Source of the DNA: Brevinematales bacterium
Lineage (GTDB): Bacteria > Spirochaetota > Brevinematia > Brevinematales > JAOACQ01
Reading direction: 5' to 3'
Assembly (NCBI GenBank): GCA_020052515.1
Contig: JAGVOW010000034.1
Span: 296-64,295 of the forward strand
Length of the DNA: 64,000 nucleotides
In this document: piece after piece, positions 7,903-63,641 of the stretch
How positions within the stretch are numbered: the first letter of the stretch is position 1
How the letters are laid out: each line of letters begins with the position of its first letter
Notes under the pieces: model-generated
The model's database searches: none
What the model was told of the DNA's origin: nothing
What the model saw: the letters and a program-made list of their open reading frames with translations, nothing else
Made by a program: the position numbers and the translations under genes

Positions 7903-9303
7903 CTAATATCGGTAATGTTCCGCTTTATACGGGCCTTCTACCTTTACGCCGATATAATCAGCCTGTTCAGGAGAAAGCTTTGTGAGCTTTACCCCAATTT
8001 TTTCTAAATGAAGCCTTGCTACTTCCTCATCCAGAAGCTTGGACAAACGGTAAACCCCGATTTTATAATTGTCTTTATTCTTCCAGAGATCAATTTGCGC
8101 AAGAACCTGATTCGTAAAAGAGTTGGACATCACAAAAGAAGGATGTCCTGTCGCGCAGCCCAGATTGACGAGTCTTCCTTCCGCTAACAGAAAAATAGCA
8201 TGGCCATCGGGAAACAGGTATTTATCTACTTGCGGTTTAATATTGACCCTTTTGATCCCAGGAAAAGATTCCAGTTTATTCACCTGGATTTCGTCGTCAA
8301 AATGGCCGATGTTGCAGACAATGGCCTGGTCTTTCATTTTTTTCATGTGCTCTATGGTAATGATGTCTTTGTTTCCCGTTGTGGTTACATAAATATCCCC
8401 TTCTCCCAGGGTGTCCTCGACGGTTTTTACCTCATAGCCTTCCATTGCCGCTTGAAGCGCGCAGATCGGGTCAATCTCGGTCACAATAACTCGCGCGCCC
8501 AGTCCGCGCAAGGATTTAGCAGAGCCCTTTCCCACATCGCCGTGGCCGCAGACAACAGCGACTTTCCCGGCTATCATGACATCCGTAGCGCGCTTGATGC
8601 CGTCTACTAATGATTCTCTGCACCCGTAAAGATTGTCAAACTTGGACTTGGTAACCGAATCATTGACATTGATAGCTGGAACTAAAAGCTCGCCTTTTTC
8701 CAGCATCTGATAAAGGCGATGAACACCCGTAGTTGTTTCTTCAGAAACCCCTTTCCAGTCTTTGACAGCGTTGTGCCATTTATTGGGCTCTTCTTTTAAA
8801 ATCTTTTTGAGCAGATCGAGAATTATGCCTTCTTCTTTATTCGAGGGCTTTTTGTCCAGAATAGAAGGGTCCTTCTCTGCGGCATAGCCTTTATGAATGA
8901 ATAGTGTGGCGTCGCCGCCGTCATCCACTATCAGTTCCGGGCCTTTCCCGCCGGGAAAAGTCAAAGCTTCTTTGGTGCACCACCAGTATTCTTCTAGAGT
9001 TTCGCCCTTCCAGGCAAAAACAGGAATTCCGGCTTTGGCAATCGCGGCCGCGGCATGGTCCTGCGTTGAGAAAATATTGCAGCTTGCCCAGCGTACATTG
9101 GCGCCTAATGCCGCAAGCGTTTCTATTAATACTGCTGTTTGTATGGTCATATGAAGTGAACCGCTGACGCGGACACTTTTCAAAGGCTTTTCTTTGGCGT
9201 ATTTTTCACGGACAGCCATCAACCCCGGCATTTCTTTTTCCGCTATTTCAATTTCTTTTCTTCCCCATTCGGCAAGAGAAATGTCTTTTACCTTGTAATC
9301 CAT
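7903..9303 (-). CDS. ahcY: Adenosylhomocysteinase
   Basis: 466 aa. Start [22 protein letters not shown]; NAD-binding [10 protein letters not shown]; C-terminal HYRY. Confidence 0.96.
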
Positions 9304-21576: not shown

Positions 21577-24500
21577 TTATCCCTCGATTTTAGGTTCGTC
21601 CGTTTTGAAGAGAAGTTCCGCTTCGTCAAAAGCGACATTAATGATTTTTGAAACGCCCTGTTCTTCCATGGTCACGCCATAGAGGGCATCGCAAATTTCC
21701 AGAGTCGACTTTGAGTGGGATACAATAATAAACTGGCTGGTCTGCTTGAAATCCTTCAGGATGGATTTGAAACGCTCGATATTGTCATCATCTAAAGGTG
21801 CGTCCATTTCATCCAGCACGACAAACGGCGTAGGCTTTAGATAAAGAATAGCAAAAATAACCGCAATGGCCACCAGGGCTTTTTCCCCTCCGGAAAGGAG
21901 CGAAATGCTCTGGAATTTTTTTCCGGGCGGTTCGGCGAATATATTGATACCGGAGTTTAAGACATCCTCTTCATTTTCCATCACCAGATCCGCGCGGCCG
22001 CCGTCAAAGAGGCGCGCGAATATTTTCTTAAAAGCCTTACGAATATCTTCAAAAGCAGATGAGAATTGATCCACGCACTTCGCGTTCGTTTCCGCAATCA
22101 ATGCCTTAATATCTTCTATTGCCTTTTCACTATCCTGCTTCTGCGTTAGTAGAAAATCCATTTTTTCCTTCGCGCCTTGATATTGCTCAATAGCCAGCAA
22201 ATTGACATCTCCCAGGTTAAGCAAATCCTGCCGGATTTTATTGATTTCCACCGAGATATTCTCAAAACTGTCTGCACTTTCTACTTGAATAGTCCGGACA
22301 TCCGCTCCAAAGTTCTTCATGCTGTTTTCAATAATCGAATCCAGAAAACCTCTTCTCTCAGAAACAGCGCTTTCCAGATTGACCAGCGTCTTTTCCAATT
22401 TCTGGATCGCGTCTTCGTTTTCTTTTCTTTTTAGCTCGAGAGCTTTTCGGGACTTCTGTAAACCTTCTATCTGACTTTTTTTCTGCTCAATTAACTCCTT
22501 GAGTTCGCTGCTTTTCTGGGTTTTTTCCCCAAGTTTTTTCGTATCGTCCAGAATTCTTTTATCCAATTCTTCGACAATCGCTATCGAATTATTTTTATCG
22601 CTTTCATAAGTGTTTTTTATTTTTTCAATATCCGCGATCTGATTTTTGATCCGGGCGGTTTCGTTTAACAAGGACTTGTATTTTTCTTCTACTCTCGCGA
22701 AATCGACTTTCTTCTTGTTTAAATCCTCAAACAAAGCATTCCTTTTATTTTTAAATTCCCGAATTTCTTCATCGTACTGATCCACGCATATCAGCATTTC
22801 CTCTATGAGGCTTTGTTTTTTTTCTATTATCGCCGAAAGTGAATTAATCTGATTTTCCAGTACCTTTTGGGCTTCCTGGGAAGATGCCAGCTGGTCCGCG
22901 ATTTTTTTCAGCTCATTCTTAAGATTGGCCAGTTCAAAATCATTTTTATTGTATTGATTCTGAATGTCTTCACGAACAGCCTGAAGCGCGAGAATTTTTG
23001 CTCTGGCAGCCTCTATTTCCTGCTCATTCTTCTGGATAGAGGAAACAATCGCTTCAATTTCCTTTTCGATAGTTTCCTTCCGGGTATAAGCTCCCTCGTC
23101 GCTGTAAAGAATGCCCAATATCTTTTCATAAGAATTTTTATAATCCGCGAAAAACGCCTTCAGCTTTTCAATCGAGTCTTTTACTTCCTGCACAGTCTGG
23201 TGCTTCTGAATCGAGTCCATCAAAGTTTGTATCACATTCTCAATATTACTTTCTAATAAAGGTTTTTGATGAGAAAATTTTTCCAGAAGCACCGCCTGCT
23301 TTTCCAGCGACTCCATAATGACTTTGTCCATCGACTTTAGTTTTACCTGCAATTCTTTCATCGACGCATTATGTTTAGAATTCTCACCCTTAATAGAAAC
23401 TTCCCGCTGAATCAGTAATTCCAGGTCGCCCATAATCTTTCCAAGCTCGCTTTTTAATTTTGAATTTTCCCGGGAAGAAACCTCAAACTGGTTTTTTTTC
23501 TCCTCCAATTCAATCTGGATTCCCCTGGAAAGATTCCATTTTTCTTCTAAGGACATTCGGTAAGTTTCCAATTTGGTCTGCACGGCAATGAGCTCATGTT
23601 TTTGCTTTTCAATGTCGTCTTTGCTGATGATCTTCTCAAAACCCAGTTCTTTTGAACGAAGAAGTATTCCAGAATCAAGCTGGCGAATTTCTGTGTGGAT
23701 AGCGTCTATTTTAGACTGTATGTCCAGATTCGCGTCCTGTACCCTTTCTTTTTCCTCAAAAACCTGGTCCATTTCCTGGCTTTTTTCAGTCAATTCCTGA
23801 TTCAGGCCTTTTCTTCTTTCTTCCCCTTCGAGAAGCCTGGCTTCCATACTTTTTAATTGATTTTGAACTGAGGTTTTTCTATCCCGATTATTTTCAAGCC
23901 TGGTCCTGGTCTCGCCTAATTCTTTTTCGATAAAACCGTAGTCTTCACGGGTGCCCAGCAGCTCTGTTTCACGATTTTGAATATCGCTCTCTACTATTAT
24001 AATGTTTTCTTCTTTCTGTTTTAATTCTTCAGCCAGAGGTTTTAATTTTTCTTCCGTCTTTCTTTTTTGATTCATCTTATCAGAAATTTCTTTCTCAAAA
24101 TTTTTAATCCGGAGCGCCTCAAATTTTAGTTCCAGATTTCGCAGAAGCGCCTTCCATTCATTGTACTTTGACGCGTTTTCCGCCTGTCCTTTCAGGCTTT
24201 CTATCTCTTTTGAAAGCCCAAGTATAATATCACTCACCCTTTCGATATTGATCCGTGAATTTTCGAGCTTCTTTTCCGCTTCTTCCTTCCGGAATTTAAA
24301 CTTCGAAATGCCGGCAAAGTCCTCAAAAAGCACGCGCCTTTCCATAGCGCTCTCACTGAGAAGCCGGTCAATTTTTCCCTGCTCAAAAATCGCGTAGCTA
24401 TCCCTGCCGATACCGGTGTCTAAAAAAAGTTCCACAATATCTTTCAACCGAACTTTTGACTTATTAATACTGTATTGACCTTCACCGGAGCGGAACATCC

Positions 24501-24813
24501 TTCTGGAAATCATCACCTCGTTGTAATCAATGGGCAGCCAATGGTTTTCATTATCAAAAGTGAGGCTCACTTCCGCCATACTGGCGGGGGTTCTATCGCG
24601 TGTTCCGTTAAAAATCACATCTTCCATTTTATCGCCGCGGAGGCTTTTGGCGCTCTGCTCACCTAAAACCCACTTGATCGCTTCCACAACGTTGGATTTT
24701 CCAGAGCCATTCGCGCCGACAATTCCGGTAATTCCATCCACCAGTTCAATAGTTGTTTTAACAGGAAAAGATTTAAAACCATGAAGATCTATGGTTTTTA
24801 AGTACCGAGCCAT
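21577..24813 (-). CDS. smc: Chromosome segregation protein SMC
   Basis: Walker A GANGSGKSN, long coiled coils, signature LSGGEKAL, Walker B VVLDEMDAPLD. 1078 aa. Confidence 0.95.
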   Translation of the reverse strand: MARYLKTIDLHGFKSFPVKTTIELVDGITGIVGANGSGKSNVVEAIKWVLGEQSAKSLRGDKMEDVIFNGTRDRTPASMAEVSLTFDNENHWLPIDYNEVMISRRMFRSGEGQYSINKSKVRLKDIVELFLDTGIGRDSYAIFEQGKIDRLLSESAMERRVLFEDFAGISKFKFRKEEAEKKLENSRINIERVSDIILGLSKEIESLKGQAENASKYNEWKALLRNLELKFEALRIKNFEKEISDKMNQKRKTEEKLKPLAEELKQKEENIIIVESDIQNRETELLGTREDYGFIEKELGETRTRLENNRDRKTSVQNQLKSMEARLLEGEERRKGLNQELTEKSQEMDQVFEEKERVQDANLDIQSKIDAIHTEIRQLDSGILLRSKELGFEKIISKDDIEKQKHELIAVQTKLETYRMSLEEKWNLSRGIQIELEEKKNQFEVSSRENSKLKSELGKIMGDLELLIQREVSIKGENSKHNASMKELQVKLKSMDKVIMESLEKQAVLLEKFSHQKPLLESNIENVIQTLMDSIQKHQTVQEVKDSIEKLKAFFADYKNSYEKILGILYSDEGAYTRKETIEKEIEAIVSSIQKNEQEIEAARAKILALQAVREDIQNQYNKNDFELANLKNELKKIADQLASSQEAQKVLENQINSLSAIIEKKQSLIEEMLICVDQYDEEIREFKNKRNALFEDLNKKKVDFARVEEKYKSLLNETARIKNQIADIEKIKNTYESDKNNSIAIVEELDKRILDDTKKLGEKTQKSSELKELIEQKKSQIEGLQKSRKALELKRKENEDAIQKLEKTLVNLESAVSERRGFLDSIIENSMKNFGADVRTIQVESADSFENISVEINKIRQDLLNLGDVNLLAIEQYQGAKEKMDFLLTQKQDSEKAIEDIKALIAETNAKCVDQFSSAFEDIRKAFKKIFARLFDGGRADLVMENEEDVLNSGINIFAEPPGKKFQSISLLSGGEKALVAIAVIFAILYLKPTPFVVLDEMDAPLDDDNIERFKSILKDFKQTSQFIIVSHSKSTLEICDALYGVTMEEQGVSKIINVAFDEAELLFKTDEPKIEG

Positions 24814-42587: not shown

Positions 42588-43631
42588 ATGAATATAAAAA
42601 AAATAATAGAAAGTAAAGAAGAATTCGTGCTTTCGGAAAAAGCATCTTTCAGTTCAAAAACAAAGGGAAGAAGTAGAAAAGAAGAAAGTGATGAAACTAG
42701 AACAGAGTATATGAGAGATAGAGACAGAATTGTACATAGTGAAGCTTTTAGAAGATTAAAACATAAAACACAAGTATTTTTATCCCCGACTAATGATTTG
42801 TTCAGGACAAGATTAACGCATACTTTAGAAGTTTCTCAAATTGCCAGAACGATTTCCAGGGCATTAAGTCTCAATGAAGATCTAACAGAAGCTATTGCCC
42901 TGGGCCATGATGTAGGCCATACTCCATTTGGACATACAGGAGAGCTGGTAATCCGGGAAGAAGCTTATCCCGATTTTAAGCACTCTGAACAAAGTGTACG
43001 AGTTTTAGAAAATTTAGAAAAGAATAGAAAGGGATTAAACCTGACCAGTGAAGTACTCGACGGCATTAGAAAACATTCTAAAACCTGGAAAGACCATATT
43101 ATGCCTGAAAGTAGTGATGATTTTTCTTTGACTTTAGAAGGAGAAGTAGTTAGAATCTCAGATACGATAGCTTATGTAAACCATGATGTGGATGATGCGG
43201 TAAAATCAGAAATACTTCATGAAGAAGATTTACCAATGGATTGTCAGAAAATATTGGGTAAAAAACATTCTGAGAGAATTGATACTCTGGTAAAAAGTGT
43301 GATACACAATAGCCTTGATTTGGACCATGTTGTTATGGATAAAGAAGTTTTAAATGCTGTTGAAAAATTAAGGGATTTTTTACATGCTCATGTTTACAAG
43401 CACCCTGTTATTCAAAATGAAATGGAAAAAGCAAAAAATATATTGTATGAATTGTACTATTTCCTGAAAAAAAATATGGATATAGTCCATCAAATGCTAA
43501 ATTTGGTTAATTATACTTCCGATGAAGATGAAAAAAGAGCCCTGGTGGATTTTGTTGCTCTTATGACAGATACAGAAGCTATAAAGCTTTATTATAAACA
43601 TTTTATACCAAAATCTTTTTATCTTTTATAG
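42588..43631 (+). CDS. dGTP triphosphohydrolase-like HD-domain phosphohydrolase
   Basis: RDRDRIVHSEAFRRLKHKTQV, RLTHTLEVSQIAR and HDVGHTPFGH motifs. Confidence 0.9.
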   Translation: MNIKKIIESKEEFVLSEKASFSSKTKGRSRKEESDETRTEYMRDRDRIVHSEAFRRLKHKTQVFLSPTNDLFRTRLTHTLEVSQIARTISRALSLNEDLTEAIALGHDVGHTPFGHTGELVIREEAYPDFKHSEQSVRVLENLEKNRKGLNLTSEVLDGIRKHSKTWKDHIMPESSDDFSLTLEGEVVRISDTIAYVNHDVDDAVKSEILHEEDLPMDCQKILGKKHSERIDTLVKSVIHNSLDLDHVVMDKEVLNAVEKLRDFLHAHVYKHPVIQNEMEKAKNILYELYYFLKKNMDIVHQMLNLVNYTSDEDEKRALVDFVALMTDTEAIKLYYKHFIPKSFYLL

Positions 43632-48070: not shown

Positions 48071-48835
48071 TCAATCGTTTATCGGCCCTTCGAAGCGGCC
48101 ATTAATAAATTGAACAACATAAGGGTTGTCTGTTTTAGTTAATTCTTTTGGAGTTCCCAGAAATATCAATTTACCTTTGTAAAGCATCCCTATTCGATCC
48201 GCGACATATTTGGCGCTCTGGATATCGTGGGTAACCATAATAAAAGTGGTTTTCAATTTATTTTTGAGCGATAAAATCACTTCATTAATATTCGCTGTGG
48301 TAATGGGGTCAAGGCCTGTTGTCGGCTCATCAAAAAGCACAACAGAGGGTTCGGCGACGATCGCCCTGGCCAGGGCAACCCTTTTCATCATTCCGCCTGA
48401 AAGAGAAGCGATCATTCTATTTTCTATGTCTGGTAATTCAACCAAATCCAGAGATTTCCGCATCATTTTTAGTTTTTCTGTTTCTTTCAGTTCAGGCCTC
48501 AGATGGTCCAGCGCAAAAAGAATATTTTCACCTACTGTCAGTGAATCGAAAAGCGCGCCGCCCTGGAAAAGCATGCCAAACTTTTTGCGGATATTATCCC
48601 ATTGCTTTTCATCATCAAAATCAATCTTTTCCCCGTCAATATAAATCTCCCCTTCATCAGGGGCCATTAAACCAATGATGTGCTTGATTAAGACGCTTTT
48701 GCCGACACCGCTCTGGCCAATAATAGCCAAAGTTTCTCCATCCAGAATCTTCAGGTCAACCCCGTCCAGGACTTTTTTCTGATTGAGTTGTTTTTTTAAC
48801 CCGTAGATTTCAATTTTCACATTTTTTGCGCTCAT
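48071..48835 (-). CDS. mlaF: ABC transporter ATP-binding protein MlaF-like
   Basis: Walker A GQSGVGKS, signature LSGGMMKR, Walker B VLFDEPTTGLD. Confidence 0.9.
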   Translation of the reverse strand: MSAKNVKIEIYGLKKQLNQKKVLDGVDLKILDGETLAIIGQSGVGKSVLIKHIIGLMAPDEGEIYIDGEKIDFDDEKQWDNIRKKFGMLFQGGALFDSLTVGENILFALDHLRPELKETEKLKMMRKSLDLVELPDIENRMIASLSGGMMKRVALARAIVAEPSVVLFDEPTTGLDPITTANINEVILSLKNKLKTTFIMVTHDIQSAKYVADRIGMLYKGKLIFLGTPKELTKTDNPYVVQFINGRFEGPIND

Positions 48836-54256: not shown

Positions 54257-55060
54257 ATGCACAAGAAAGCCATTATTCCTTTAATTATTGTGGTGTTGTC
54301 GCTATTGGCTGCGTTATTATATTTTGATGTGTTCCGCAACCGGGATGGAGATTCCTCTCGGGTAGAGGGATCGGGAACGATTGAAGTGACCGAGATTGAA
54401 ATGAGTTCCAAAATCGCCGGCCGGGTAAAAGAAATTCCCTTTGAAGAAGGGCAGAGTGTCAAAAAGGGAGAATGGATCATTAAGCTGGAGGACGAAGAGC
54501 TAATAGCCCAGGTGAATTCAGCGAAAGCGAACTTGATAAACGCGGAGGCGAATTATAAAAGAAGTCGGGAGCTCAACAAATCCGGTTCTATTTCCAGAAA
54601 AGACTATGATAGCTCGGAAACCCTTTTTAAGGTCGCGAGAGCCAATCTGGATTTAATTTCGGCTTCTATCGGCAACGCGGTTTTAGTTTCGCCGATTGAC
54701 GGGGTAGTACTCGAAAAAAACCTGGAAGTAGGGGAAATGGCTTTCCCGGGTTCTGTTATTCTGACGCTGGCAGAACTGACAAAGCCATGGATCAAAATTT
54801 ATGTGGCGGAGAAAAAGTTGGGTTTTGTAAAATTAGGCCAAAAGGCTCTGGTGACGGTAGATACTTTTCTTAATAGAAAATTTGAGGGGAAAGTGGTTTC
54901 CATTTCCAGCAAAGCGGAGTTTACTCCGAAAACCATTCAAACTAAAGATGAAAGGGTCAAATTGATGTTTGCCGTAAAAATTATTCTAAACAATCCGGAT
55001 TTCAGCTTGAAACCGGGAATGCCCGCGGATGTAACTGTTCAGACAGAGGAAAAAAAGTGA
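54257..55060 (+). CDS. HlyD-family membrane fusion protein (YbhG-like)
   Basis: N-terminal TM, lipoyl-like and coiled-coil regions, C-terminal LKPGMPADVTV. Confidence 0.9.
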   Translation: MHKKAIIPLIIVVLSLLAALLYFDVFRNRDGDSSRVEGSGTIEVTEIEMSSKIAGRVKEIPFEEGQSVKKGEWIIKLEDEELIAQVNSAKANLINAEANYKRSRELNKSGSISRKDYDSSETLFKVARANLDLISASIGNAVLVSPIDGVVLEKNLEVGEMAFPGSVILTLAELTKPWIKIYVAEKKLGFVKLGQKALVTVDTFLNRKFEGKVVSISSKAEFTPKTIQTKDERVKLMFAVKIILNNPDFSLKPGMPADVTVQTEEKK

Positions 55061-55779
55061 TAGAAGTTCAAAGCCTTTCTAAAAGTTTTGAAGGCAAAAA
55101 AGCTGCGTCAAATCTCTCTTTCAATGTAAAAAAAGGCGAAATATTTGGAATAGTGGGCCCGGATGGCGCCGGAAAAAGCACGCTTCTGCGAATGCTTGCC
55201 TCCATTTTGAGGCCGGATCAAGGCTCTATCACACTGGAAAAAGTGAGTATTTTTGAGAATCCATTTTTGACAAAAGAAAAAATAGCCTACATGCCTCAGC
55301 GGTTTGGGCTTTACGAAGATTTAACAGTGGAAGAAAATATGATTTTTTTCTCAAAGCTTTTCAATGTTTCCAGAAAAGACCGCCTGAAAAGGATGAAAAG
55401 GCTTTATGAATTCAGTCATCTGGAGCCTTTTAGGACGCGCCTTGCCGGTAAACTTTCCGGCGGTATGAAGCAAAAATTGGGGTTGGCATGTTCTCTCATT
55501 CACCAGCCGCAGATTCTTCTCCTAGATGAACCGACTAATGGAGTAGATCCGGTTTCCCGCCGGGAATTCTGGAAAATTCTTTATGATTTATTAGGGGAAG
55601 GTGTGACAATTTTAGTCAGTACGGCCTATCTAGATGAAGCGGAAAGATGCAACCGGCTGGCCCTTATGTATGAAGGTAGATTTATCGCCCTGGGAAGCCC
55701 GGATGAAATCAAGGCGGATTTCCCAAAATTTTCTTTAGAAGATGTTTTTATCGCTAGAATGGCGAAAGGGGCGTTTTAA
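55057..55779 (+). CDS. ABC transporter ATP-binding protein (NBD 1 of a YbhF-like pair)
   Basis: Walker A GPDGAGKST, signature LSGGMKQK, Walker B LLLDEPTNGVD. GTG start overlaps the upstream stop. Confidence 0.9.
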   Translation: MIEVQSLSKSFEGKKAASNLSFNVKKGEIFGIVGPDGAGKSTLLRMLASILRPDQGSITLEKVSIFENPFLTKEKIAYMPQRFGLYEDLTVEENMIFFSKLFNVSRKDRLKRMKRLYEFSHLEPFRTRLAGKLSGGMKQKLGLACSLIHQPQILLLDEPTNGVDPVSRREFWKILYDLLGEGVTILVSTAYLDEAERCNRLALMYEGRFIALGSPDEIKADFPKFSLEDVFIARMAKGAF

Positions 55780-58117: not shown

Positions 58118-59035
58118 ATGACTACCGTTGATGTAAAGCTTTTGACTAAAAATTTTGGTCATTTTACGGCTGTCGACCATGTCAGCTTCACTGTCGAAAA
58201 GGGTGAAATATTCGGCTTTCTGGGCCCAAATGGGGCGGGGAAAAGCACGACGATCAAAATGCTTTGCGGAATATTGGTTCCGACGAGCGGCGAGGGTCAT
58301 GTGGCCGGGTTGGACATTATGAAAGAGCAGGACAAAATCAAACAGATGATCGGGTATATGTCGCAAAAATTTTCTCTTTATGATGACCTGACCGTGATCG
58401 AAAATTTAGAATTTTTCGGAAGTGTTTATGGCTTAGACGACAAAAAACTCCGGCAAAGAATCAAAATGGCCCTTGAAATGGCGGAGATCGGGAAAGAAAA
58501 GAGTCATCTGGTAAAAAGCCTGCCGGCGGGAATGAAACAGCGCTTGTCTCTGGGCGCTTCTATATTACACGATCCTTCTATTCTCTTTCTGGATGAACCG
58601 ACTTCCGGGGTAGATCCCATTATGAGGAGAAATTTCTGGGAGCTGATCTATCAATTTTCCCGGGAAGGGAAAACTATTTTTGTTACAACGCATTATATGG
58701 ATGAAGCGGAGCATTGTAACCGGGCCGCTTTAGTAACAGCGGGGAAAATTATCGCGCTGGATTCACCGGCTTGTTTGAAACAGTCTTTGCCCTACGATGT
58801 TTTTGCTTTGAAAATAAAGGATTTTATCCGGATTTTTGAGCGGGTGTCGCGTCTGCCTTTTGTTCATGAAGCCTCTATTTTTGGAAGCGATATTCATCTT
58901 CTTTGCGAAAAAGGATTTCATCTGGAGAAGGAACTGGGAGTTTTCTTGAAAAAAGAAAATTTTTCGGATTATCATATTGAGCGGATAGAGCCGACACTGG
59001 AGGATGTGTTTGTGACGCAGGTGAGAAAGCATTAA
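58118..59035 (+). CDS. ABC transporter ATP-binding protein (NBD 2) with degenerate signature and a C-terminal extra domain
   Basis: Walker A GPNGAGKST and Walker B LFLDEPTSGVD. The signature position reads LPAGMKQR instead of LSGG. 305 aa. Confidence 0.9.
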   Translation: MTTVDVKLLTKNFGHFTAVDHVSFTVEKGEIFGFLGPNGAGKSTTIKMLCGILVPTSGEGHVAGLDIMKEQDKIKQMIGYMSQKFSLYDDLTVIENLEFFGSVYGLDDKKLRQRIKMALEMAEIGKEKSHLVKSLPAGMKQRLSLGASILHDPSILFLDEPTSGVDPIMRRNFWELIYQFSREGKTIFVTTHYMDEAEHCNRAALVTAGKIIALDSPACLKQSLPYDVFALKIKDFIRIFERVSRLPFVHEASIFGSDIHLLCEKGFHLEKELGVFLKKENFSDYHIERIEPTLEDVFVTQVRKH

Positions 59036-59249
59036 ATGACAATGTTTACTTTTTCACCAACACCTGAATCCATAAGAGGGATCATAGACAATTGGCTTTT
59101 GAGGAGCATAGCTTCATTAATAAAGGAATTTACTCTGGAAGTGGTTTGCGCAATCTGCTGATAAAGCTTAAAGTTAATAGAGCCGATCATACTTTCTCCG
59201 CTTGTTTTGTTGAATTATCGGCAGATTGCTGAAAAACTCCAGAAAATTT

Positions 59250-59753
59250 ATGAGGGTGGCAGCCATGTTCTGGATCATCGGCCGTACAATCGCTAAAGCC
59301 GGCATCGGCATACTCACTCTTCCGATCAGCCTTACTATTGATCGCTATATTCTGAGAAAGAACGGCTTGAGCACCGGGACATTTATCCTGGTTTTCATTT
59401 TTGTCAATGCTTACTGGGCAATTCCAATGCTTGGTTTCGGCCTGGAAGCAATGATCCATTGTTTTGATCCTTCAAAAGCCTTTCTGGGAAAAGAAATCGC
59501 TTCGAGCTTTTTGATCCTTGTCGGTTCTTATTTTTATTGGCTTCCTGCCGGCTGTCTCTTTTGTCTTGTTTTTCTGGCTTTATTCAGACGTAAGGCCAAT
59601 TTTTTCTCGTGGAATTTTGGATCCAAGGGAAATAATCATTCGCATTTGCTGTGTCTTATTTTTGCTGCTGCCTCTGGTTTTTCAAGTGGGAGTATTTATT
59701 GCCCGCAAGTTTGGCCGGATCGGGTAAAAAAGCTTATACCGTTAACTTTTTAA
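59250..59753 (+). CDS. Possible small multi-pass membrane protein (uncertain)
   Basis: The ORF has about 4 hydrophobic segments, but no clear RBS and no family resemblance. It overlaps the 3' end of the convergent DUF4276-like gene by 20 nt. Confidence 0.35.
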   Translation: MRVAAMFWIIGRTIAKAGIGILTLPISLTIDRYILRKNGLSTGTFILVFIFVNAYWAIPMLGFGLEAMIHCFDPSKAFLGKEIASSFLILVGSYFYWLPAGCLFCLVFLALFRRKANFFSWNFGSKGNNHSHLLCLIFAAASGFSSGSIYCPQVWPDRVKKLIPLTF

Positions 59754-60285
59754 CCGCTTGAATCAAATGATAAAAACTTAGAGATCGTTTATTATCCACT
59801 TTCAAGTGCGGGCTGATCCGTCGAGAACCGTCTATCTTCTGATAATGCGGGACAAGACGCTTCAGCTCTATTGAAGGTGACATAGCGCTGTCCGGTTTCC
59901 GGAACAATCTTTTCCCTTGCAAAGAAGCTATACCGGGTAAACCCATGCCTTTCTCAACCGCTTCTAAGTCAGCAAGGTACCAGCTTTCCAATTCACGACA
60001 CGCTATTCTAATAATTGTCTCAGACTTTCCTGCCTCCAGACATTTAGCGTACAAATTTTTTTTAATATCCTTACAGTCACCAGAATCCTGATCACGCAGA
60101 ATAATAAACTGAACATCCGACTTCAGATATCCACGAAGTTTCCTCACCAATTGCTTTTCAAGATCCTGCTTTCCTTCAAACACAATATAACGTACTTTGA
60201 TAGTATTGGGTAATATTCTCGGAAGTAACCCTTCCAGCATTACTTTTGCAGAACGCTCTTCCAGTAAAAAGACAATCTCGCTCAT
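59734..60285 (-). CDS. DUF4276-like protein with a Toprim-like acidic motif pattern
   Basis: 183 aa with VFLLEERSA, FEGKQDL, ILRDQDSGDC and ELESWYLAD. Its ATG overlaps the stop of the upstream ATPase gene (ATGA at 60282-60285). Confidence 0.8.
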   Translation of the reverse strand: MSEIVFLLEERSAKVMLEGLLPRILPNTIKVRYIVFEGKQDLEKQLVRKLRGYLKSDVQFIILRDQDSGDCKDIKKNLYAKCLEAGKSETIIRIACRELESWYLADLEAVEKGMGLPGIASLQGKRLFRKPDSAMSPSIELKRLVPHYQKIDGSRRISPHLKVDNKRSLSFYHLIQAVKKLTV

Positions 60286-61469
60286 AAAGGGTCTGCCCCC
60301 GTAAAGAACCCCTGCCGCCAGAGATAACCGAGTTTATCCCCTTCTCCCATATATTTTCTAAGCTGCTCATCATCGGCGGCCTTTTTTATTATTGTGTAAC
60401 CGTTCTCTTTCTGAAGCCAAAAAACTTCTTCCAGTTCCGCAGCGTTTAGAAAATCGGGAGAGTGGGTAGATACGAATACCTGGCCGCCTTTTCTGGAATA
60501 TTCGCGAAATTCTTCGGCTAACTCCATTAAAAGCTTTGGATAAAGCTGATTTTCCGGTTCCTCGACGCAAAGGAGCGGATGAGGTTTCGGATCGTTCAAT
60601 AAGACCAGATAAGCAAACATCTTTATAGTACCATCCGAAACATGCCGGGCTAGAAACGGATCCTGAAAAGCCCCATCTTTAAACCGAAGCAAAACACGCC
60701 CTTCTTCGGTAATTTTTGAGTCAACATCCGATATTCCTGGAACCCGCTGTTTTAGCTTTTCAATTATGGAACTGAATATTTCCGGATGGCGTTTGTAAAG
60801 AAATTCTGTGACCAGAGAAAGGTTTTCGCCTTCGCGCGATAAGTGTTCCGCATAGCCCGCTTCATGTTCCGGTTGAGCACGTTGAATATGAAAATCAGAT
60901 ATATACCAGTTTTCCAGAAGCTCGCCAAGTGCTTTACTCGCGGGAAATTTTTCAAACTGGGCAAGTCCTTTTAACGCCAGAATATCAGGTGATTTTAAGG
61001 TGTGGTCTTCCCGCTTTAGTTCTGTTTTTTCTGTTACTTTATCCGGTTCATTCATAACCGCTTTTCCTGTTCCACGGGAGAAATCGAGGAATCTCCAAGG
61101 TTGGCCTTTACTACCTCGGCGGTATTGTAAGATTTCTTTTTCTATAATAGGGCGGCCTTTTTCTTCATTTATAGATAAAAAATAGGTTACCAGTGGTGAT
61201 GAAGAATTTTCCCGAAATTTAAGCTCAATTTCTATTGGACCTTCTGCCCCTCTGCTTTTGACCTCTTGAAATCCCTTACTGCCGCCTAGTTTTGTTAGGG
61301 CTACATGAATATTGTCAGCTAAAGCGTCCTGGAGGAAACTGAAAACATTAAACAGGGTTGTTTTACCCGACCCATTAGCGCCGACAAAAATGCACATTTT
61401 AGGCAAGTTTTGTATTTCCACATTTTTTAGGGCCTTAAAATTTTTAAGCCGAATAGATTCAATTTTCAT
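60282..61469 (-). CDS. SMC/RecF/ABC-type AAA ATPase (AAA_21/AAA_15-like)
   Basis: Walker A GANGSGKTT, helical insertion, signature-like VSDGTIKM, Walker B LLCVEEPE, H-loop STHSP. aaggag RBS. Confidence 0.88.
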   Translation of the reverse strand: MKIESIRLKNFKALKNVEIQNLPKMCIFVGANGSGKTTLFNVFSFLQDALADNIHVALTKLGGSKGFQEVKSRGAEGPIEIELKFRENSSSPLVTYFLSINEEKGRPIIEKEILQYRRGSKGQPWRFLDFSRGTGKAVMNEPDKVTEKTELKREDHTLKSPDILALKGLAQFEKFPASKALGELLENWYISDFHIQRAQPEHEAGYAEHLSREGENLSLVTEFLYKRHPEIFSSIIEKLKQRVPGISDVDSKITEEGRVLLRFKDGAFQDPFLARHVSDGTIKMFAYLVLLNDPKPHPLLCVEEPENQLYPKLLMELAEEFREYSRKGGQVFVSTHSPDFLNAAELEEVFWLQKENGYTIIKKAADDEQLRKYMGEGDKLGYLWRQGFFTGADPL

Positions 61470-61618
61470 GGGATGTCTCCTTTTTGATCAAATATTATTA
61501 TACAGTAAACCTAAAATTAATCATAAAATCTTTGCTATTACAAATAAATTTCTGGTACTGTTTCCTTTACCAGCGAATAGCGCGAAATTTTATGACTTTC
61601 GTGATTTTTTCTGTGTTC

Positions 61619-61678
61619 TAATATTTAGCATAAGGATTAAGAAGACTAAAATCAAGTTTTATTATTGATGATTGCTTC
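61619..61678. repeat. 60-bp direct repeat, copy A (carries a TTGATT-17-TATGCT promoter on the minus strand)
   Basis: 58/60 identical to 62314-62373. Lies 150 nt upstream of the ATPase ATG. Confidence 0.95.
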
Positions 61679-61808
61679 CATCAGGAGGACCCTTTTGCGC
61701 AATTCGGGGACGGTTTTTATGCCGCGAAACATTCTAAATTTCGTGTGGTTGGTGAGCTTGTCGTTCTTGGTTTCACTTCTTCAAAAAGGCTTCCAGAGTC
61801 AAGTAAAA

Positions 61809-62078
61809 TTATTTAGGGAAGTATTTGTAAATATCCTTTCTATCTAAAAATCTGGAAAAAAACACAGTTTTATTAACAATTTCAATGCCCGCACGATATG
61901 ATCCGGTAGAGATCCTATAATATGTTTTGTAACCTTTTAATTTCTTCAAATTTTTTATTTCCCTTATGTCTTTAGCATTGGCAACAACTGTGATAACGTC
62001 TTTTACTGCCTGAAAAAGCTCTTTGTTTTTTATATTGAGCATATCTTTTTTAAAATTGCGTTCCAGTTCATAATTCAT
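61809..62078 (-). CDS. RelE/ParE-family type II toxin
   Basis: 89 aa. The KKLKGYKTYYRISTGSYRAGIEI...FLDRKDIY pattern is typical of the RelE/ParE family. ATGA overlap with the upstream gene. Confidence 0.85.
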   Translation of the reverse strand: MNYELERNFKKDMLNIKNKELFQAVKDVITVVANAKDIREIKNLKKLKGYKTYYRISTGSYRAGIEIVNKTVFFSRFLDRKDIYKYFPK

Positions 62079-62302
62079 CAGCGGCTGCCGATTTTAGAAT
62101 CTAAAAACTTCATGAATTCATCTTTGTCGATAAAATCATTTTTCCGGCCTTCCTGAATTAAAAGCCCAAGATTTCGATCCTCGATAGCTTCGATAAGGTT
62201 TAAAACTTTATTCTCATCGACAAAAATTTCCGTTACAGTTTCAATAACAGTTTTATGAACAATGTCTTTTAATTCGTTTCTGCTTAAAGTAATGCTTTCC
62301 AT
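62078..62302 (-). CDS. Putative antitoxin of the RelE/ParE pair
   Basis: 74 aa from ATG 62302, which follows a ggagg RBS. Acidic C-terminal half (EDRNLGLLIQEG...DKDEFMKFL). Sits upstream of and overlaps the toxin gene. Confidence 0.75.
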   Translation of the reverse strand: MESITLSRNELKDIVHKTVIETVTEIFVDENKVLNLIEAIEDRNLGLLIQEGRKNDFIDKDEFMKFLDSKIGSR

Positions 62303-62313
62303 AATGACCTCCA

Positions 62314-62373
62314 TAATATTAAGCATAAGGATTGAGAAGACTAAAATCAAGTTTTATTATTGATGATTGCTTC
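62314..62373. repeat. 60-bp direct repeat, copy B (promoter of the toxin-antitoxin operon)
   Basis: -10 TATGCT at 62327-62322 and -35 TTGATT at 62350-62345 on the minus strand. The antitoxin ATG is about 20 nt downstream. Confidence 0.95.
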
Positions 62374-62517
62374 TCCGAATTGGCTGTCGTCAAATTTGTA
62401 AGAAAGCTTTTCCCCTTTAATTAAGGCATGCATAGATAATCCAAGTAGTTCCGAGAATTTCAATAATCTTTCCGTCGGAGGAAAGGATGATAATTCATAT
62501 TGCGACAAATCTGTCAA
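62347..62517 (-). pseudogene. Possible degenerate XRE-type HTH remnant (56 codons, TTG start only)
   Basis: The frame reads TDLSQYELSSFPPTERLLKFSELLGLSMHALIKGEK..., which resembles helices 2-3 and the following region of an HTH_3 domain but lacks the N-terminal helix. Its stop lies inside repeat copy B. Confidence 0.3.
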
Positions 62518-63641
62518 TTTTTGAAGGATTTAATCCACTTGATAAGATCACTGGCATGAGGAGGGCAGCCCGGGACAAAGCCCTCTGTACTGCTGTTCTT
62601 TTTTGAGCAATTTCCCACAAAAATAGAATTGACAAAAGGGGTAATTATTTCAGGAGCAGCTTTTAGTCCAATGTAAAATTCCTGGGTCGCTTTGTCGTAT
62701 CCTTTTTCCAGCACCTCGATTACAGAGGAAAGGCATTGTGAGCAGATTGCCTTGTTTGAGAACAGCTTACTCTGAAAACGCTTGTTGATCAAAGCATCCG
62801 GGTTTTCCAGCTCGGCGGGGGCCTTATTCAGCTCTACGATTTTAGGTTGGCCGGAAAAACCAAGGTATTCTTTGTAGGCCTTTAAGTAGCCAATCTCCCG
62901 GATATCCAACCCTAAACTGGCCGCGGCATAGTAATCAAAAGCAAACAAATCCTGGCTCATAAATATTTTTCTAAACCGGACTGGCGCTATCCCCTCTTCA
63001 GAATAGGCGTCGCCGACGATAGCGTCCCCTATATTCAGGGTAGTTTTGATGACAGTATTTAATTCAAAAATAGAATTGTCTAATCCGGAATGATAAAAAT
63101 TACTTTTTTCACTCTCGCTGATAATGCCCATCAGATTTTTCATCCCGCATGACAGGCCGGTCTGGCTATGCGCTTTTAATACGGGGATGTTAATAATTTT
63201 ATCCGCTTTTAATATCGTTTCGGCTATTCGGATATCTTTTAATTTCGAATAATTTCCCGGAACTTTCACAGGTACAAATTTATCTTGCTTTAAATCGACC
63301 AGATTGACATTGTATTTTGTGCAAAGTTTCTCATAATCGCAAAATTTGAAAGCCTTTGCTGTGTCAATTTTAAGTTCTGCCCCTTCCGCTATGGTTATTT
63401 TTTTTACTTTCAGCTTCATTAACTCGATGATTACCTGTTCTACCAGAGACGGGTCAGTAGTGGCTCCTGTGGAGCTTTCTTTCAGGATTTCCACATTTGG
63501 CTTTATGACCACATTTTCGTTAGGTGAGAAGAGCTCTGCCGGGCTTATTTTGTCGGATTTGGCGGTTTCATCAAATAAAGTATGTATCAAATCAGCGGGA
63601 GAATCACCATAAGCGACATATACCGAATGGTCCTGAATCAT
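62514..63641 (-). CDS. DUF362 domain protein
   Basis: VVIKPNVEI...TGATTDPSLVEQVI...KKITIAEGA pattern of DUF362 and a Cys-rich C-terminal part. ATG 63641 chosen because the longer ORF would contain its own promoter. Confidence 0.82.
   Translation of the reverse strand: MIQDHSVYVAYGDSPADLIHTLFDETAKSDKISPAELFSPNENVVIKPNVEILKESSTGATTDPSLVEQVIIELMKLKVKKITIAEGAELKIDTAKAFKFCDYEKLCTKYNVNLVDLKQDKFVPVKVPGNYSKLKDIRIAETILKADKIINIPVLKAHSQTGLSCGMKNLMGIISESEKSNFYHSGLDNSIFELNTVIKTTLNIGDAIVGDAYSEEGIAPVRFRKIFMSQDLFAFDYYAAASLGLDIREIGYLKAYKEYLGFSGQPKIVELNKAPAELENPDALINKRFQSKLFSNKAICSQCLSSVIEVLEKGYDKATQEFYIGLKAAPEIITPFVNSIFVGNCSKKNSSTEGFVPGCPPHASDLIKWIKSFKN

What the first reader, a model, noticed from the sequence alone, without database searches (positions are those of the whole stretch)
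59734..61469. Two-gene ATPase + DUF4276-like module: candidate split OLD/PARIS/AbiL-type defence system
Seen directly: a 395-aa protein with Walker A (GANGSGKTT), a long helical insertion, an ABC-signature-like VSDGTIKM, Walker B (LLCVEEPE) and an H-loop (STHSP). It is translationally coupled (ATGA overlap at 60282-60285) to a 183-aa protein with acidic motifs in the order E (LLEERS) ... DxD-like (RDQDSGD) ... ELESW. From memory, the small protein fits the DUF4276 family, which commonly sits next to AAA_21-type ATPases. From established knowledge, an ABC/SMC-like ATPase paired with a small Toprim-type nuclease is the logic of OLD-family nucleases, Gabija GajA, PARIS (AriA + DUF4435 AriB) and AbiL (AbiLi + RloB-like AbiLii). 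Inference: this is a related abortive-infection or anti-phage pair. To my knowledge the DUF4276 version has no experimental characterisation. The context supports this: it sits next to a RelE/ParE pair, a degenerate HTH remnant and a duplicated promoter, at the edge of an otherwise housekeeping region.
Basis: partly seen in the sequence, partly recalled or inferred. Interest (0 to 1): 0.78.

Follow-up and report, generated by a model that had tools for sequence, protein, structure and literature searches.

The report
Known candidate ATPase–Toprim defence pair (HEC-01)
This is a real two-gene operon encoding an ATP-driven sensor-like protein and a small metal-dependent nuclease, and it belongs to an already catalogued candidate anti-phage system (PADLOC "HEC-01") whose activity and mechanism are still unsettled.

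Summary
On the minus strand, a 395-aa ABC-type ATPase (60282-61469) overlaps a 183-aa DUF4276 protein (59734-60285) by 4 nt (ATGA).

- Both proteins match the PADLOC HEC-01 models over their full length (668 and 272 bits).
- They are 54 % and 51 % identical to the Pseudomonas agarici HEC-01 pair tested by Payne et al., which gave no defence in E. coli.
- Another HEC-01 representative protected E. coli B against at least one of T7, T5 or T4 (Nat Commun 2026).
- DUF4276 has been published as a Toprim-superfamily domain. Its homolog Mad4, with Mad3, is needed for MADS defence.

My own evidence:
- The partner's model (pLDDT 95.8) best matches the Toprim region of B. pseudomallei OLD.
- E9, D65xD67 and E98xE100 are invariant.
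- ATPase-then-partner order holds in 36 of 39 species genomes.
- Neighbourhoods are mixed: defence or toxin-antitoxin islands, or lone cassettes.

One point I did not find in the papers read: the ATPase is under much stronger purifying selection than the nuclease.

Verdict: a new member of a known candidate kind, with moderate-to-low interest.

The parts
60282..61469 (-). HEC-01 ABC-type ATPase, 395 aa (SMC/OLD-class; Pfam AAA_21/AAA_15). Walker A 30-38, signature-like SDGT 278-281, Walker B and catalytic Glu 299-304, H-loop H336.
   Evidence: ORF. Pfam. PADLOC PDLC04144, 9e-202, 668 bits, positions 1-394 of a 395-position model. It is 54 % identical over its full length to the tested P. agarici HEC-01 ATPase. 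Motif residues are invariant. The fold matches SMC, Rad50, OLD, PtuA and GajA heads, but the model is of low confidence.
59734..60285 (-). HEC-01 DUF4276 protein, 183 aa: predicted Toprim-fold, metal-dependent nuclease. Candidate catalytic residues are E9/E10, D65-x-D67 and E98-x-E100. K39, K150 and R155 are also conserved.
   Evidence: Pfam DUF4276 2.9e-11, above the gathering score. PADLOC PDLC04143, 7.2e-82, full length. AlphaFold2 pLDDT 95.8 with a beta-alpha x4 core. Foldseek top hits are 6nk8_B and 6nk8_A (OLD Toprim region): probability 1.0, TM 0.60 normalised to the query and 0.55 to the target for 6nk8_B, 208 columns. The acidic residues are invariant down to 34 % identity and in remote relatives.
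60282..60285 (-). ATGA stop/start overlap, indicating translational coupling of ATPase and nuclease.
   Evidence: Sequence. Among the 31 homologous loci examined, the junction is the same 4-nt overlap (ATGA, GTGA or TTGA) in 16, a 1-nt overlap (TAATG or TAGTG) in 6 and a 13-nt overlap in 5. The rest have a short gap, a 202-nt gap, or were unassigned.
61477..61482 (-). Shine-Dalgarno AAGGAG, 7 nt upstream of the ATPase ATG.
   Evidence: Read directly from the sequence.
61619..61678 (-). Copy 1 of a 60-nt direct repeat, about 150 nt upstream of the ATPase start. Copy 2, at 62314-62373, sits immediately upstream of the RelB-like antitoxin. It is a candidate shared regulatory or promoter element; the by-eye TTGATT-17-TATGCT match is 8/12 and falls below the scan's threshold.
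   Evidence: Searches show exactly 2 copies in the window against 0 expected. The consensus scan reported no sigma-70-like site on the minus strand between 61470 and 61808, so its function is inferred only.

Best explanation
The locus is a stand-alone, two-gene HEC-01 cassette.

What is shown or predicted:
- The upstream gene encodes an SMC/OLD-class ABC ATPase.
- The downstream, translationally coupled gene encodes a DUF4276 protein. This is a Toprim-fold nuclease carrying the Toprim glutamate (E9), the DxD motif (D65/D67) and a further E98xE100 pair.

Most likely mechanism, inferred by analogy with PARIS, OLD, Gabija and Mad3-Mad4:
- The two proteins are made together and form a complex.
- The ATPase acts as the nucleotide-dependent sensor or gatekeeper.
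- On an infection-associated cue, ATP binding or hydrolysis licenses or releases the Toprim nuclease.
- The nuclease then cuts nucleic acid, either DNA as in OLD and Gabija or tRNA as in PARIS AriB.
- This blocks phage replication, possibly at the cost of the cell.

The ATPase is held under exceptionally strong purifying selection across phyla. I therefore infer that the cue is more likely a conserved nucleic-acid or nucleotide state than a fast-evolving phage protein. That step is speculation.
For: Family identity:
- PADLOC HEC-01 models hit both proteins over their full length.
- They are 54 % and 51 % identical to the published, tested HEC-01 pair, with the same lengths and the same 4-nt overlap.

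Nuclease fold and active site. Published assignments of DUF4276 to Toprim are in PMC12065111 and in Payne et al. Fig. S6.

Obligate partnership:
- DUF4276 lies directly downstream in 36 of 39 species-representative loci.
- Overlapping junctions are conserved.

Defence association:
- HEC-01 was found embedded in Hma systems.
- One ATPase copy sits inside a BREX-like cluster of BrxC/PglY, methylase, SNF2 and PglZ.
- The pair sits in a phosphorothioation and toxin-antitoxin island on Synechocystis pSYSM.
- It sits next to a methylase, an AlbA_2-HATPase and a ResIII helicase in a Spirochaetota contig.
- It sits in dense ParE/AbiEii/HEPN-MNT/HicAB islands in Ignavibacteria.
- It is on a conjugative plasmid.

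Experiments in the literature:
- One HEC-01 representative protected E. coli B against at least one of T7, T5 or T4.
- Deleting mad3 or mad4 weakens MADS.

Selection: synonymous sites are saturated (pS >= 0.75), yet the ATPase dN is 0.14 and the partner dN is 0.30-0.33. Both genes are therefore functional and constrained.
Against: - The closest tested relative, P. agarici HEC-01, gave no protection against any phage tried in E. coli.
- The positive report gives no fold-change and no mutant controls for HEC-01. I could not check which HEC-01 subtype it was, because no supplements are held.
- About half of the neighbourhoods I sampled are ordinary housekeeping DNA. [quoted passage not shown]
- Very strong conservation of a supposed sensor is atypical for phage-sensing proteins.
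- No complex, no nuclease activity, no substrate and no trigger is known for any member.
- The ATPase model is of low confidence outside the core.
Confidence: 0.6

Rival explanations
1. The pair is a portable nuclease 'plug-in'. It does not defend on its own. Instead it serves as the effector arm of a methylation- or modification-based system (MADS/Hma, BREX-like, Dnd-like). In this window it would be an orphan copy with little or no autonomous activity.
For: - Mad3 and Mad4 (Mad4 is a DUF4276 homolog) are accessory, not present in all MADS, yet are needed for full defence. mad5 could be deleted only when mad2 or mad3 was also deleted.
- HEC-01 was discovered embedded in Hma.
- Copies sit inside or beside BREX-like, phosphorothioation-type and methylase-helicase clusters.
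- The stand-alone P. agarici pair was inactive in E. coli.
Against: - In this window, and in about half of the sampled loci, no such system is nearby.
- Even so, both genes stay intact and under strong purifying selection.
- A HEC-01 cluster alone was reported protective in E. coli B.
- The window ATPase is not a Mad3 equivalog: 121 bits against a cutoff of 420.
Confidence: 0.2
2. The pair is a selfish addiction or toxin-antitoxin-like stability module. The nuclease is the toxin and the ATPase its neutraliser. The module persists by post-segregational killing rather than by defending against phage.
For: - Pfam labels AAA_21 as 'putative AbiEii toxin, Type IV TA system'.
- The pair sits beside toxin-antitoxin-like genes in the window and in toxin-antitoxin islands elsewhere.
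- It occurs on plasmids.
- The nuclease partner is fragmented or lost in several genomes while the ATPase survives.
Against: - The ATPase, not the supposed toxin, is the gene most often retained alone and the more conserved one.
- Both genes show long-term purifying selection in chromosomes.
- No labile-antitoxin features are evident.
- Addiction and abortive-infection functions are not mutually exclusive.
Confidence: 0.1
3. The pair is a housekeeping-type DNA repair or maintenance module, analogous to RecF (an SMC-like ABC ATPase) working with RecR (a Toprim protein).
For: - The N-terminus of the ATPase resembles RecF/RecN/SMC (SMC_N 1.9e-10; TIGR00611 recF 1.2e-7 over 40 residues).
- The ATPase is about 82 % identical across phyla, a level typical of core proteins.
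- The window is otherwise housekeeping.
Against: - Its distribution is patchy, with different flanks in every lineage.
- It is carried on plasmids.
- Copies are tandemly duplicated or decayed.
- It is embedded in defence clusters.
- The RecF similarity is limited to the P-loop region and far below the family cutoff (31 bits against 172).
Confidence: 0.05

Closest known systems
HEC-01 (Hma-embedded candidate 01; PADLOC-DB v2; Payne et al., bioRxiv 10.1101/2024.01.29.577857)
   Same: - Same two-gene architecture: a 395-aa ABC ATPase followed by a DUF4276/TOPRIM-like protein, with a 4-nt overlap.
- Full-length hits to the HEC-01 HMM pair.
- 54 % and 51 % identity to the tested P. agarici representative.
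- Same structural match to the Toprim region of Bp OLD, 6NK8.
   Different: - Here the pair is not embedded in an Hma system. It sits alone between an ABC-2 efflux operon and a toxin-antitoxin-like pair.
- The matching PADLOC models carry swapped A/B labels: PDLC04144 'HEC-01B' is the ATPase and PDLC04143 'HEC-01A' is the DUF4276 protein.
Mad3-Mad4 of MADS (methylation-associated defence system, P. aeruginosa)
   Same: An AAA_15/21-type ABC ATPase paired with a DUF4276 (Mad4-like) Toprim protein. Both are needed for full MADS defence.
   Different: - The window ATPase scores 121 bits against the 420-bit cutoff of NCBIfam's MAD3 equivalog model.
- No mad1, mad2 or mad5-8 genes (methylase, helicase and so on) are present in the window.
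- The PADLOC mad3 hit is uninformative, because that model also hits the housekeeping SMC and ABC transporters.
PARIS (AriA ABC ATPase + AriB DUF4435 Toprim nuclease)
   Same: A split ABC ATPase of the AAA_15/21 family plus a separate small Toprim nuclease. AriA models are the best non-HEC hits (116 bits). It offers a plausible mechanistic template: an ATPase scaffold releases the nuclease on a trigger, and the nuclease cleaves tRNA.
   Different: - The partner is DUF4276, not DUF4435. No DUF4435 or AriB hit appears in Pfam or PADLOC.
- The AriA score is far below the HEC-01 score.
- No trigger or substrate is known.
AbiL (AbiLi ATPase + AbiLii RloB-like Toprim)
   Same: A two-gene ATPase plus small Toprim-like protein. 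AbiLi hits at 92 bits. The best viral structural match of the partner is an RloB-like protein (probability 0.99, TM 0.48 normalised to the query and 0.43 to the target).
   Different: The partner shows no sequence-level RloB (PF13707) match, and the ATPase hit covers only part of the AbiLi profile.
OLD-family nucleases and Gabija GajA (class 1 and class 2 OLD)
   Same: The same two catalytic modules. The partner's fold best matches the Toprim plus helical C-terminal region of B. pseudomallei OLD, with equivalent E and DxD positions. The ATPase model matches T. scotoductus OLD and GajA among other ABC heads.
   Different: - In OLD and GajA the ATPase and Toprim are fused in one polypeptide. Here they are separate, translationally coupled genes.
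- There is no GajB-like helicase.
- Sequence similarity to GajA is weak (58-64 bits).

Membership tests
PADLOC HEC-01 candidate system | An ATPase component matching a HEC-01 ATPase HMM | tested here: met
   PDLC04144, 9e-202, 668 bits, residues 1-394 on positions 1-394 of a 395-position model. A second model, PDLC04182, scores 429 bits.
PADLOC HEC-01 candidate system | A DUF4276/TOPRIM-like component matching a HEC-01 partner HMM | tested here: met
   PDLC04143, 7.2e-82, 272 bits, full length. PDLC04202 scores 116 bits.
PADLOC HEC-01 candidate system | The two genes adjacent, on the same strand, ATPase first | tested here: met
   A 4-nt overlap on the minus strand. The tested representative has the same layout, as do 36 of 39 species loci.
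PADLOC HEC-01 candidate system | Anti-phage activity | not testable with these tools
   The literature is split: no defence for P. agarici HEC-01, and protection against at least one of T7, T5 or T4 for a cold-seep representative.
Pfam DUF4276 (PF14103) | Score above Pfam's gathering threshold over the whole domain | tested here: met
   44.4 bits against 30.2; residues 9-178 on profile positions 2-191 of 192.
Toprim superfamily | Three-layer alpha/beta fold with a four-stranded parallel sheet (beta-alpha-beta-alpha-beta-alpha-beta) | tested here: met
   AlphaFold2 pLDDT 95.8, with strands at 3-8, 30-35, 58-65 and 91-95 alternating with helices. The only probability-1.0 PDB matches are the two chains of the OLD Toprim region 6NK8. 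This is a prediction, not a solved structure.
Toprim superfamily | A conserved Glu after strand 1 and a DxD motif after strand 3 | tested here: met
   E9 is present in 31 of 32 sequences; D65 and D67 in 32 of 32. All are retained in remote DUF4276 relatives.
Toprim superfamily | Metal-dependent phosphoryl-transfer or nuclease activity | not testable with these tools
   No biochemical data exist for any DUF4276 protein in the papers found.
ABC ATPase (SMC/Rad50/OLD class; Pfam AAA_21/AAA_15) | Walker A, signature motif, Walker B with catalytic Glu, and H-loop, in order, with an insert between Walker A and the signature | tested here: met
   AAA_21 at 122 bits and AAA_15 at 87 bits. G30, G35, K36, T37, S278-D-G-T281, E303, E304 and H336 are invariant. 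Foldseek hits cohesin SMC head, Rad50, SMC, OLD, PtuA and GajA heads at E around 1e-10, though TM is only about 0.4 because the insert is poorly modelled.
OLD family nucleases (class 1 and 2) / Gabija GajA | ATPase and Toprim domains fused in one polypeptide (with a GajB helicase for Gabija) | tested here: not met
   Two separate ORFs. No helicase is adjacent. GajA HMM hits reach only 58-64 bits.
PARIS (AriA/AriB) | The partner nuclease is a DUF4435-type Toprim (AriB) | tested here: not met
   The partner hits only DUF4276 in Pfam, and only HEC-01 partner models (plus one marginal RTasNERD-Hel match, E 0.0086) in PADLOC. There is no AriB or DUF4435 hit.
AbiL (AbiLi/AbiLii) | The partner is an RloB-family (PF13707) protein | tested here: not met
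   No RloB hit at sequence level. Only a fold-level resemblance to a viral RloB-like protein.
MADS (Mad1-8) | An ATPase reaching the MAD3 equivalog cutoff, and the presence of the mandatory mad6-8 genes | tested here: not met
   NCBIfam MAD3 scores 121 bits against a cutoff of 420. No methylase, helicase or other MADS genes occur in the 64-kb window. The window ends 2.5 kb beyond the pair, so more distant genes on that side are unseen.

The most novel reading that the evidence does not exclude
The HEC-01 ATPase is held at about 80-84 % identity and a near-constant length of 394-408 aa (mostly 395-397) across Desulfobacterales, Nostocales, Spirochaetota, Ignavibacteria and KSB1. This holds even though synonymous sites are saturated, and its nuclease partner evolves about twice as fast.

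That pattern is the reverse of what is expected for a phage-protein sensor. It would fit a system that monitors a universal molecular state, such as a DNA or RNA structure, nucleotide levels or a conserved host machine. It would equally fit a standard 'socket' ATPase that plugs a nuclease into different modification-based immune systems (MADS/Hma, BREX-like, Dnd-like). Either would be a distinct sensing logic within the ATPase-Toprim systems.
Probability: 0.2. Interest if true: 0.55.

Novelty: new member of a known kind. Interest (0 to 1): 0.3.

Why it matters
ABC-ATPase plus Toprim pairs (OLD, Gabija, PARIS, AbiL, Mad3-4) are a recurring design in bacterial immunity. HEC-01 is one of the more abundant PADLOC candidate types in environmental genomes. 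Even so, its activity is disputed and it has no known trigger, substrate or structure.

This locus adds nothing categorically new. It is, however, a clean, intact, stand-alone example from a non-model lineage.

The comparative data gathered here give concrete handles for a mechanistic study of the family:
- a strictly coupled gene pair;
- an invariant E/DxD/ExE site;
- an ATPase under far stronger constraint than its nuclease;
- recurrent loss or decay of the nuclease.

Tried and rejected
- **Source contig.** The exact-sequence contig look-up for the window's own protein found nothing on record. The source organism therefore stays undetermined; the nearest named relatives are Desulfobacterales MAGs.
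- **Empty-site comparison.** I looked for close relatives of the flanking DUF362 gene in metagenome contigs. Only 29 %-identical hits came back, so I could not show that the cassette is an insertion.
- **PDB sequence searches.** These gave nothing useful for either protein: only EcfA2 at 6e-4 for the ATPase, and noise for the partner.
- **ATPase structure.** The only homologs available were at least 79 % identical, so the alignment was shallow and the model reached pLDDT 63. The fold search therefore resolved only the class (SMC/Rad50/OLD/PtuA/GajA), not the nearest system.
- **Three invariant cysteines (C71, C82, C96).** I suspected a metal or redox site. They are absent from remote DUF4276 relatives that keep the acidic site, so they are subfamily-specific and probably structural.
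- **PADLOC mad3 similarity.** I rejected this as evidence, because the model also hits the window's SMC (187 bits) and ABC transporters.
- **Alternative effectors where DUF4276 is missing.** In L017 and L018 nothing replaces it; these are simply orphan ATPases.
- **RNA features.** No tRNA and no Rfam RNA lies around the cassette.
- **Promoter.** The scan reported no sigma-70 consensus site on the coding strand upstream of the ATPase.
Full report
**1. Observation**

The ATPase is at 60282..61469 (395 aa) and the small protein at 59734..60285 (183 aa). They overlap in ATGA at 60282-60285. An AAGGAG ribosome-binding site lies 7 nt upstream of the ATPase start.

All quoted motifs are present. Comparison with homologs shows they are invariant or nearly so:
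- ATPase: G30, G35, K36, T37 (Walker A); S278-D-G-T281 (signature-like); E303/E304 (Walker B and catalytic Glu); H336 (H-loop).
- Small protein: E9/E10, D65-x-D67 and E98-x-E100.

**2. Family assignment**

- Pfam gives AAA_21 (6.7e-35) and AAA_15 (1.9e-24) for the ATPase.
- Pfam gives DUF4276 (2.9e-11; 44.4 bits against a gathering score of 30.2, nearly full length) for the partner.
- PADLOC is decisive. The ATPase matches PDLC04144 at 668 bits (positions 1-394 of 395). The partner matches PDLC04143 at 272 bits. Both models are labelled HEC-01.
- NCBIfam has no model that either protein passes. MAD3 scores 121 bits against a cutoff of 420.

**3. What HEC-01 is**

- Payne et al. (bioRxiv 10.1101/2024.01.29.577857) defined 'Hma-embedded candidate 01' as an ABC ATPase with a TOPRIM-like partner. 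They showed by structure prediction that the partner shares the metal-binding site of B. pseudomallei OLD. They found no protection in E. coli MG1655 deltaRM against their phage panel.
- Their tested pair, from P. agarici, is a 395-aa ATPase plus a 192-aa DUF4276 protein with a 4-nt overlap. It is 54 % and 51 % identical to the window's proteins over the full length.
- A cold-seep study (Nat Commun 2026, PMC12881386) reports that one HEC-01 representative protected E. coli B against at least one of T7, T5 or T4. It gives no effect size and no mutants for HEC-01.
- The Menshen paper (PMC12065111) classifies DUF4276 and RloB as Toprim-superfamily members with conserved E and DxD, and names Mad4 of MADS as a DUF4276 homolog.
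- The PARIS paper (PMC11464382) adds AbiL and MADS3-4 to the ABC-ATPase + TOPRIM systems.
- In MADS, deleting mad3 or mad4 reduces defence. mad5 could be deleted only together with mad2 or mad3.

**4. My own structural test**

The partner:
- With a 46-sequence alignment, the model has pLDDT 95.8.
- It has a beta-alpha-beta-alpha-beta-alpha-beta core followed by a helical C-terminal part.
- E9/E10 sit at the end of strand 1, D65xD67 at the end of strand 3, and E98xE100 just after strand 4.
- Against the PDB, the only probability-1.0 hits are the two chains of the Toprim-containing C-terminal region of B. pseudomallei OLD (6NK8). The better chain has TM 0.60 normalised to the query and 0.55 to the target, over 208 columns. 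Everything below is generic Rossmann-like.
- Against viral models, the top hit is an RloB-like protein (probability 0.99).
- A profile search of PDB sequences found nothing, so this relationship is visible only at fold level.

The ATPase:
- The model is confident only in the ABC core (pLDDT 63).
- It matches cohesin SMC head, Rad50, SMC, OLD, PtuA and GajA heads about equally.
- I therefore cannot say which solved ATPase is closest.
- At sequence level the order is HEC-01, then AriA (116 bits), AbiLi (92), NsnB (77) and GajA (about 60).
- The PADLOC mad3 hit (98 bits) must be discounted. That model also hits the window's housekeeping SMC (187 bits) and three ABC-transporter ATPases (86-104 bits).

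**5. Comparative genomics**

Family size and spread:
- The partner family has more than 3,500 clusters.
- The ATPase search saturated at 8,000 candidates.
- Named relatives come from Desulfobacterales, Nostocales and other cyanobacteria, Spirochaetota, Ignavibacteria and KSB1.
- More distant relatives come from Dehalococcoidia, Acidobacteria, Proteobacteria and others.

Gene order in 39 species-representative genomes:
- The DUF4276 gene lies directly downstream of the ATPase in 36.
- In five of these the partner is fragmented, and in one the ATPase is split.
- In three the partner is absent. In two of them (L017, L018) nothing replaces it. In the third (L045), as in L009, the ATPase sits inside a BREX-like cluster.

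Junctions are overlapping in most loci: 4 nt, 1 nt or 13 nt.

Neighbourhoods are mixed.
- With defence, toxin-antitoxin or mobile-element neighbours:
  - a BREX-like cluster of BrxC/PglY, methylase, SNF2 and PglZ;
  - a phosphorothioation-associated and toxin-antitoxin island on Synechocystis PCC 6803 plasmid pSYSM;
  - a methylase, an AlbA_2-HATPase and a ResIII helicase cluster in a Spirochaetota contig;
  - dense ParE/AbiEii/MNT-HEPN/HicAB islands in Ignavibacteria;
  - a conjugative Pseudomonas plasmid.
- Lone cassettes in housekeeping DNA: next to PGK, ArgRS or NADH dehydrogenase genes.
- Phage genomes hold only distant relatives, at most 32 % identity.

**6. Selection**

- The ATPase is always more conserved than its partner: 82 % against 60-65 % for cyanobacterial copies, and 55 % against 34-45 % for distant ones.
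- A Nei-Gojobori estimate shows synonymous sites saturated (pS at least 0.75) in every comparison.
- Over the same comparisons, dN is 0.14 for the ATPase and 0.30-0.33 for the partner.
- The cross-phylum similarity is therefore long-term purifying selection, not recent transfer.
- Both genes are clearly functional.
- The presumed sensor is the slower-evolving component, which is unusual for phage-sensing proteins.
- I did not find this point in the papers I read.

**7. Local context in the window**

- Upstream on the plus strand is a TetR-HlyD-ABC-2 efflux operon ending at 59035. Beyond it are DnaB and other core genes.
- A hydrophobic 175-aa ORF with no family (59226-59753, plus strand) converges on the DUF4276 gene and overlaps its 3' end by 20 nt.
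- On the other side lies a small pair: a RelB-like gene (E about 0.01) and a ParE/RelE-like gene (Pfam 0.0018; PHROG 5e-4). Next to it is a 56-aa ORF matching only the C-terminal half of an HTH_19 profile (E 0.019). All of these are sub-threshold but consistent with one another.
- A sharply bounded 60-nt direct repeat (97 %) sits upstream of both the antitoxin and the ATPase operon. It brackets the toxin-antitoxin-like pair.
- G+C drops to 0.32-0.35 over 61100-62600, against about 0.42 elsewhere.
- There is no tRNA, integrase or Rfam RNA nearby.
- No other defence system is present in the window. The dGTPase and PycC-like PADLOC hits are to otherwise ordinary-looking genes.

**8. Mechanism**

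What is shown or predicted with confidence:
- an ABC ATPase with intact catalytic motifs;
- a Toprim-fold partner with an intact acidic site;
- obligate genetic coupling;
- purifying selection on both genes.

What is inferred by analogy with PARIS, OLD, Gabija and Mad3-4:
- The ATPase gates the nuclease in response to an infection cue.
- The nuclease cuts DNA or tRNA.

Whether the outcome is direct restriction or abortive infection is unknown, as are the trigger and the substrate. The main rival is that the pair is an effector plug-in for modification-based systems and is weak or inert alone. A selfish toxin-antitoxin-like role and a repair role are less likely.

**9. Verdict**

The finding is real and correctly interpreted. 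It is a new member of an already catalogued candidate family, HEC-01, whose partner domain has already been assigned to Toprim. Interest is moderate to low. The residual interest lies in the unresolved mechanism and the unusual conservation pattern.

Noticed in passing
window 61619-61678 and 62314-62373: A sharply bounded 60-nt direct repeat (97 % identical, only these two copies in the window) lies upstream of both the RelB-like antitoxin gene and the ATPase operon, so it brackets the toxin-antitoxin-like pair. It could be a duplicated regulatory element or a scar of cassette insertion. G+C drops to 0.32-0.35 across this stretch.
   Followed up: partly
window 21577-24813(-), 48071-48835(-), 55057-55779(+), 58118-59035(+): The PADLOC v2 'mad3' model (PDLC04135) hits the housekeeping SMC protein at 187 bits and three ABC-transporter ATPases at 86-104 bits. 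That is as strong as or stronger than its hit to the HEC-01 ATPase (98 bits). The model is promiscuous, so its hits should not be read as MADS.
   Followed up: yes
window 42588-43631 (+): An HD-domain protein matches the PADLOC dGTPase model at 1.6e-71 over nearly its full length. It may be an ordinary dGTP triphosphohydrolase or a defence-type dGTPase. Another window ORF, not identified, matches PycC cyclase models (best 3.8e-29).
   Followed up: no
window 59226-59753 (+): A hydrophobic 175-aa ORF with no Pfam or PHROG family converges on the DUF4276 gene and overlaps its 3' end by 20 nt. It is unclear whether it is a real gene, part of the ABC-2 operon, or part of the cassette.
   Followed up: no
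L019 6941-8793 and 9998-11748 (Anabaena lutea FACHB-196): Two ATPase + DUF4276 pairs sit in tandem. The upstream pair is divergent: ATPase 313 bits and partner 111 bits against the window's proteins or profile. Its partner lacks the three subfamily cysteines but keeps the acidic site.
   Followed up: partly
L009 / L045 10001-11188 (Desulfobacterales / Deltaproteobacteria MAGs): An 82 %-identical ATPase has no DUF4276 partner. It is wedged between an N6_N4 methyltransferase and an SNF2 helicase, inside a cluster of BrxC/PglY-like protein, PglZ and a second SNF2 helicase. This looks like a BREX-like system that has kept only the ATPase.
   Followed up: partly
L008, L022, L025, L031, L034, L040, L054 (partner gene); L047 (ATPase): In several genomes the DUF4276 gene is split, truncated or interrupted while the ATPase stays intact; the reverse occurs only once. 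This suggests recurrent inactivation of the nuclease.
   Followed up: partly
L005-L008, L055 (Ignavibacteria contigs), about 7-10 kb upstream of the pair: There are dense islands in which toxin-antitoxin and Abi genes (ParE, AbiEii, MNT/HepT, HicAB) alternate regularly with small '23S_rRNA_IVP' / bAvd-like four-helix-bundle genes. The islands sit at the edge of a polysaccharide-biosynthesis locus.
   Followed up: no
window 59734-60285 (-), residues C71, C82, C96: Three cysteines are invariant across 32 partners, down to 34 % identity, and in the tested P. agarici protein. They are absent from more remote DUF4276 proteins.
   Followed up: partly
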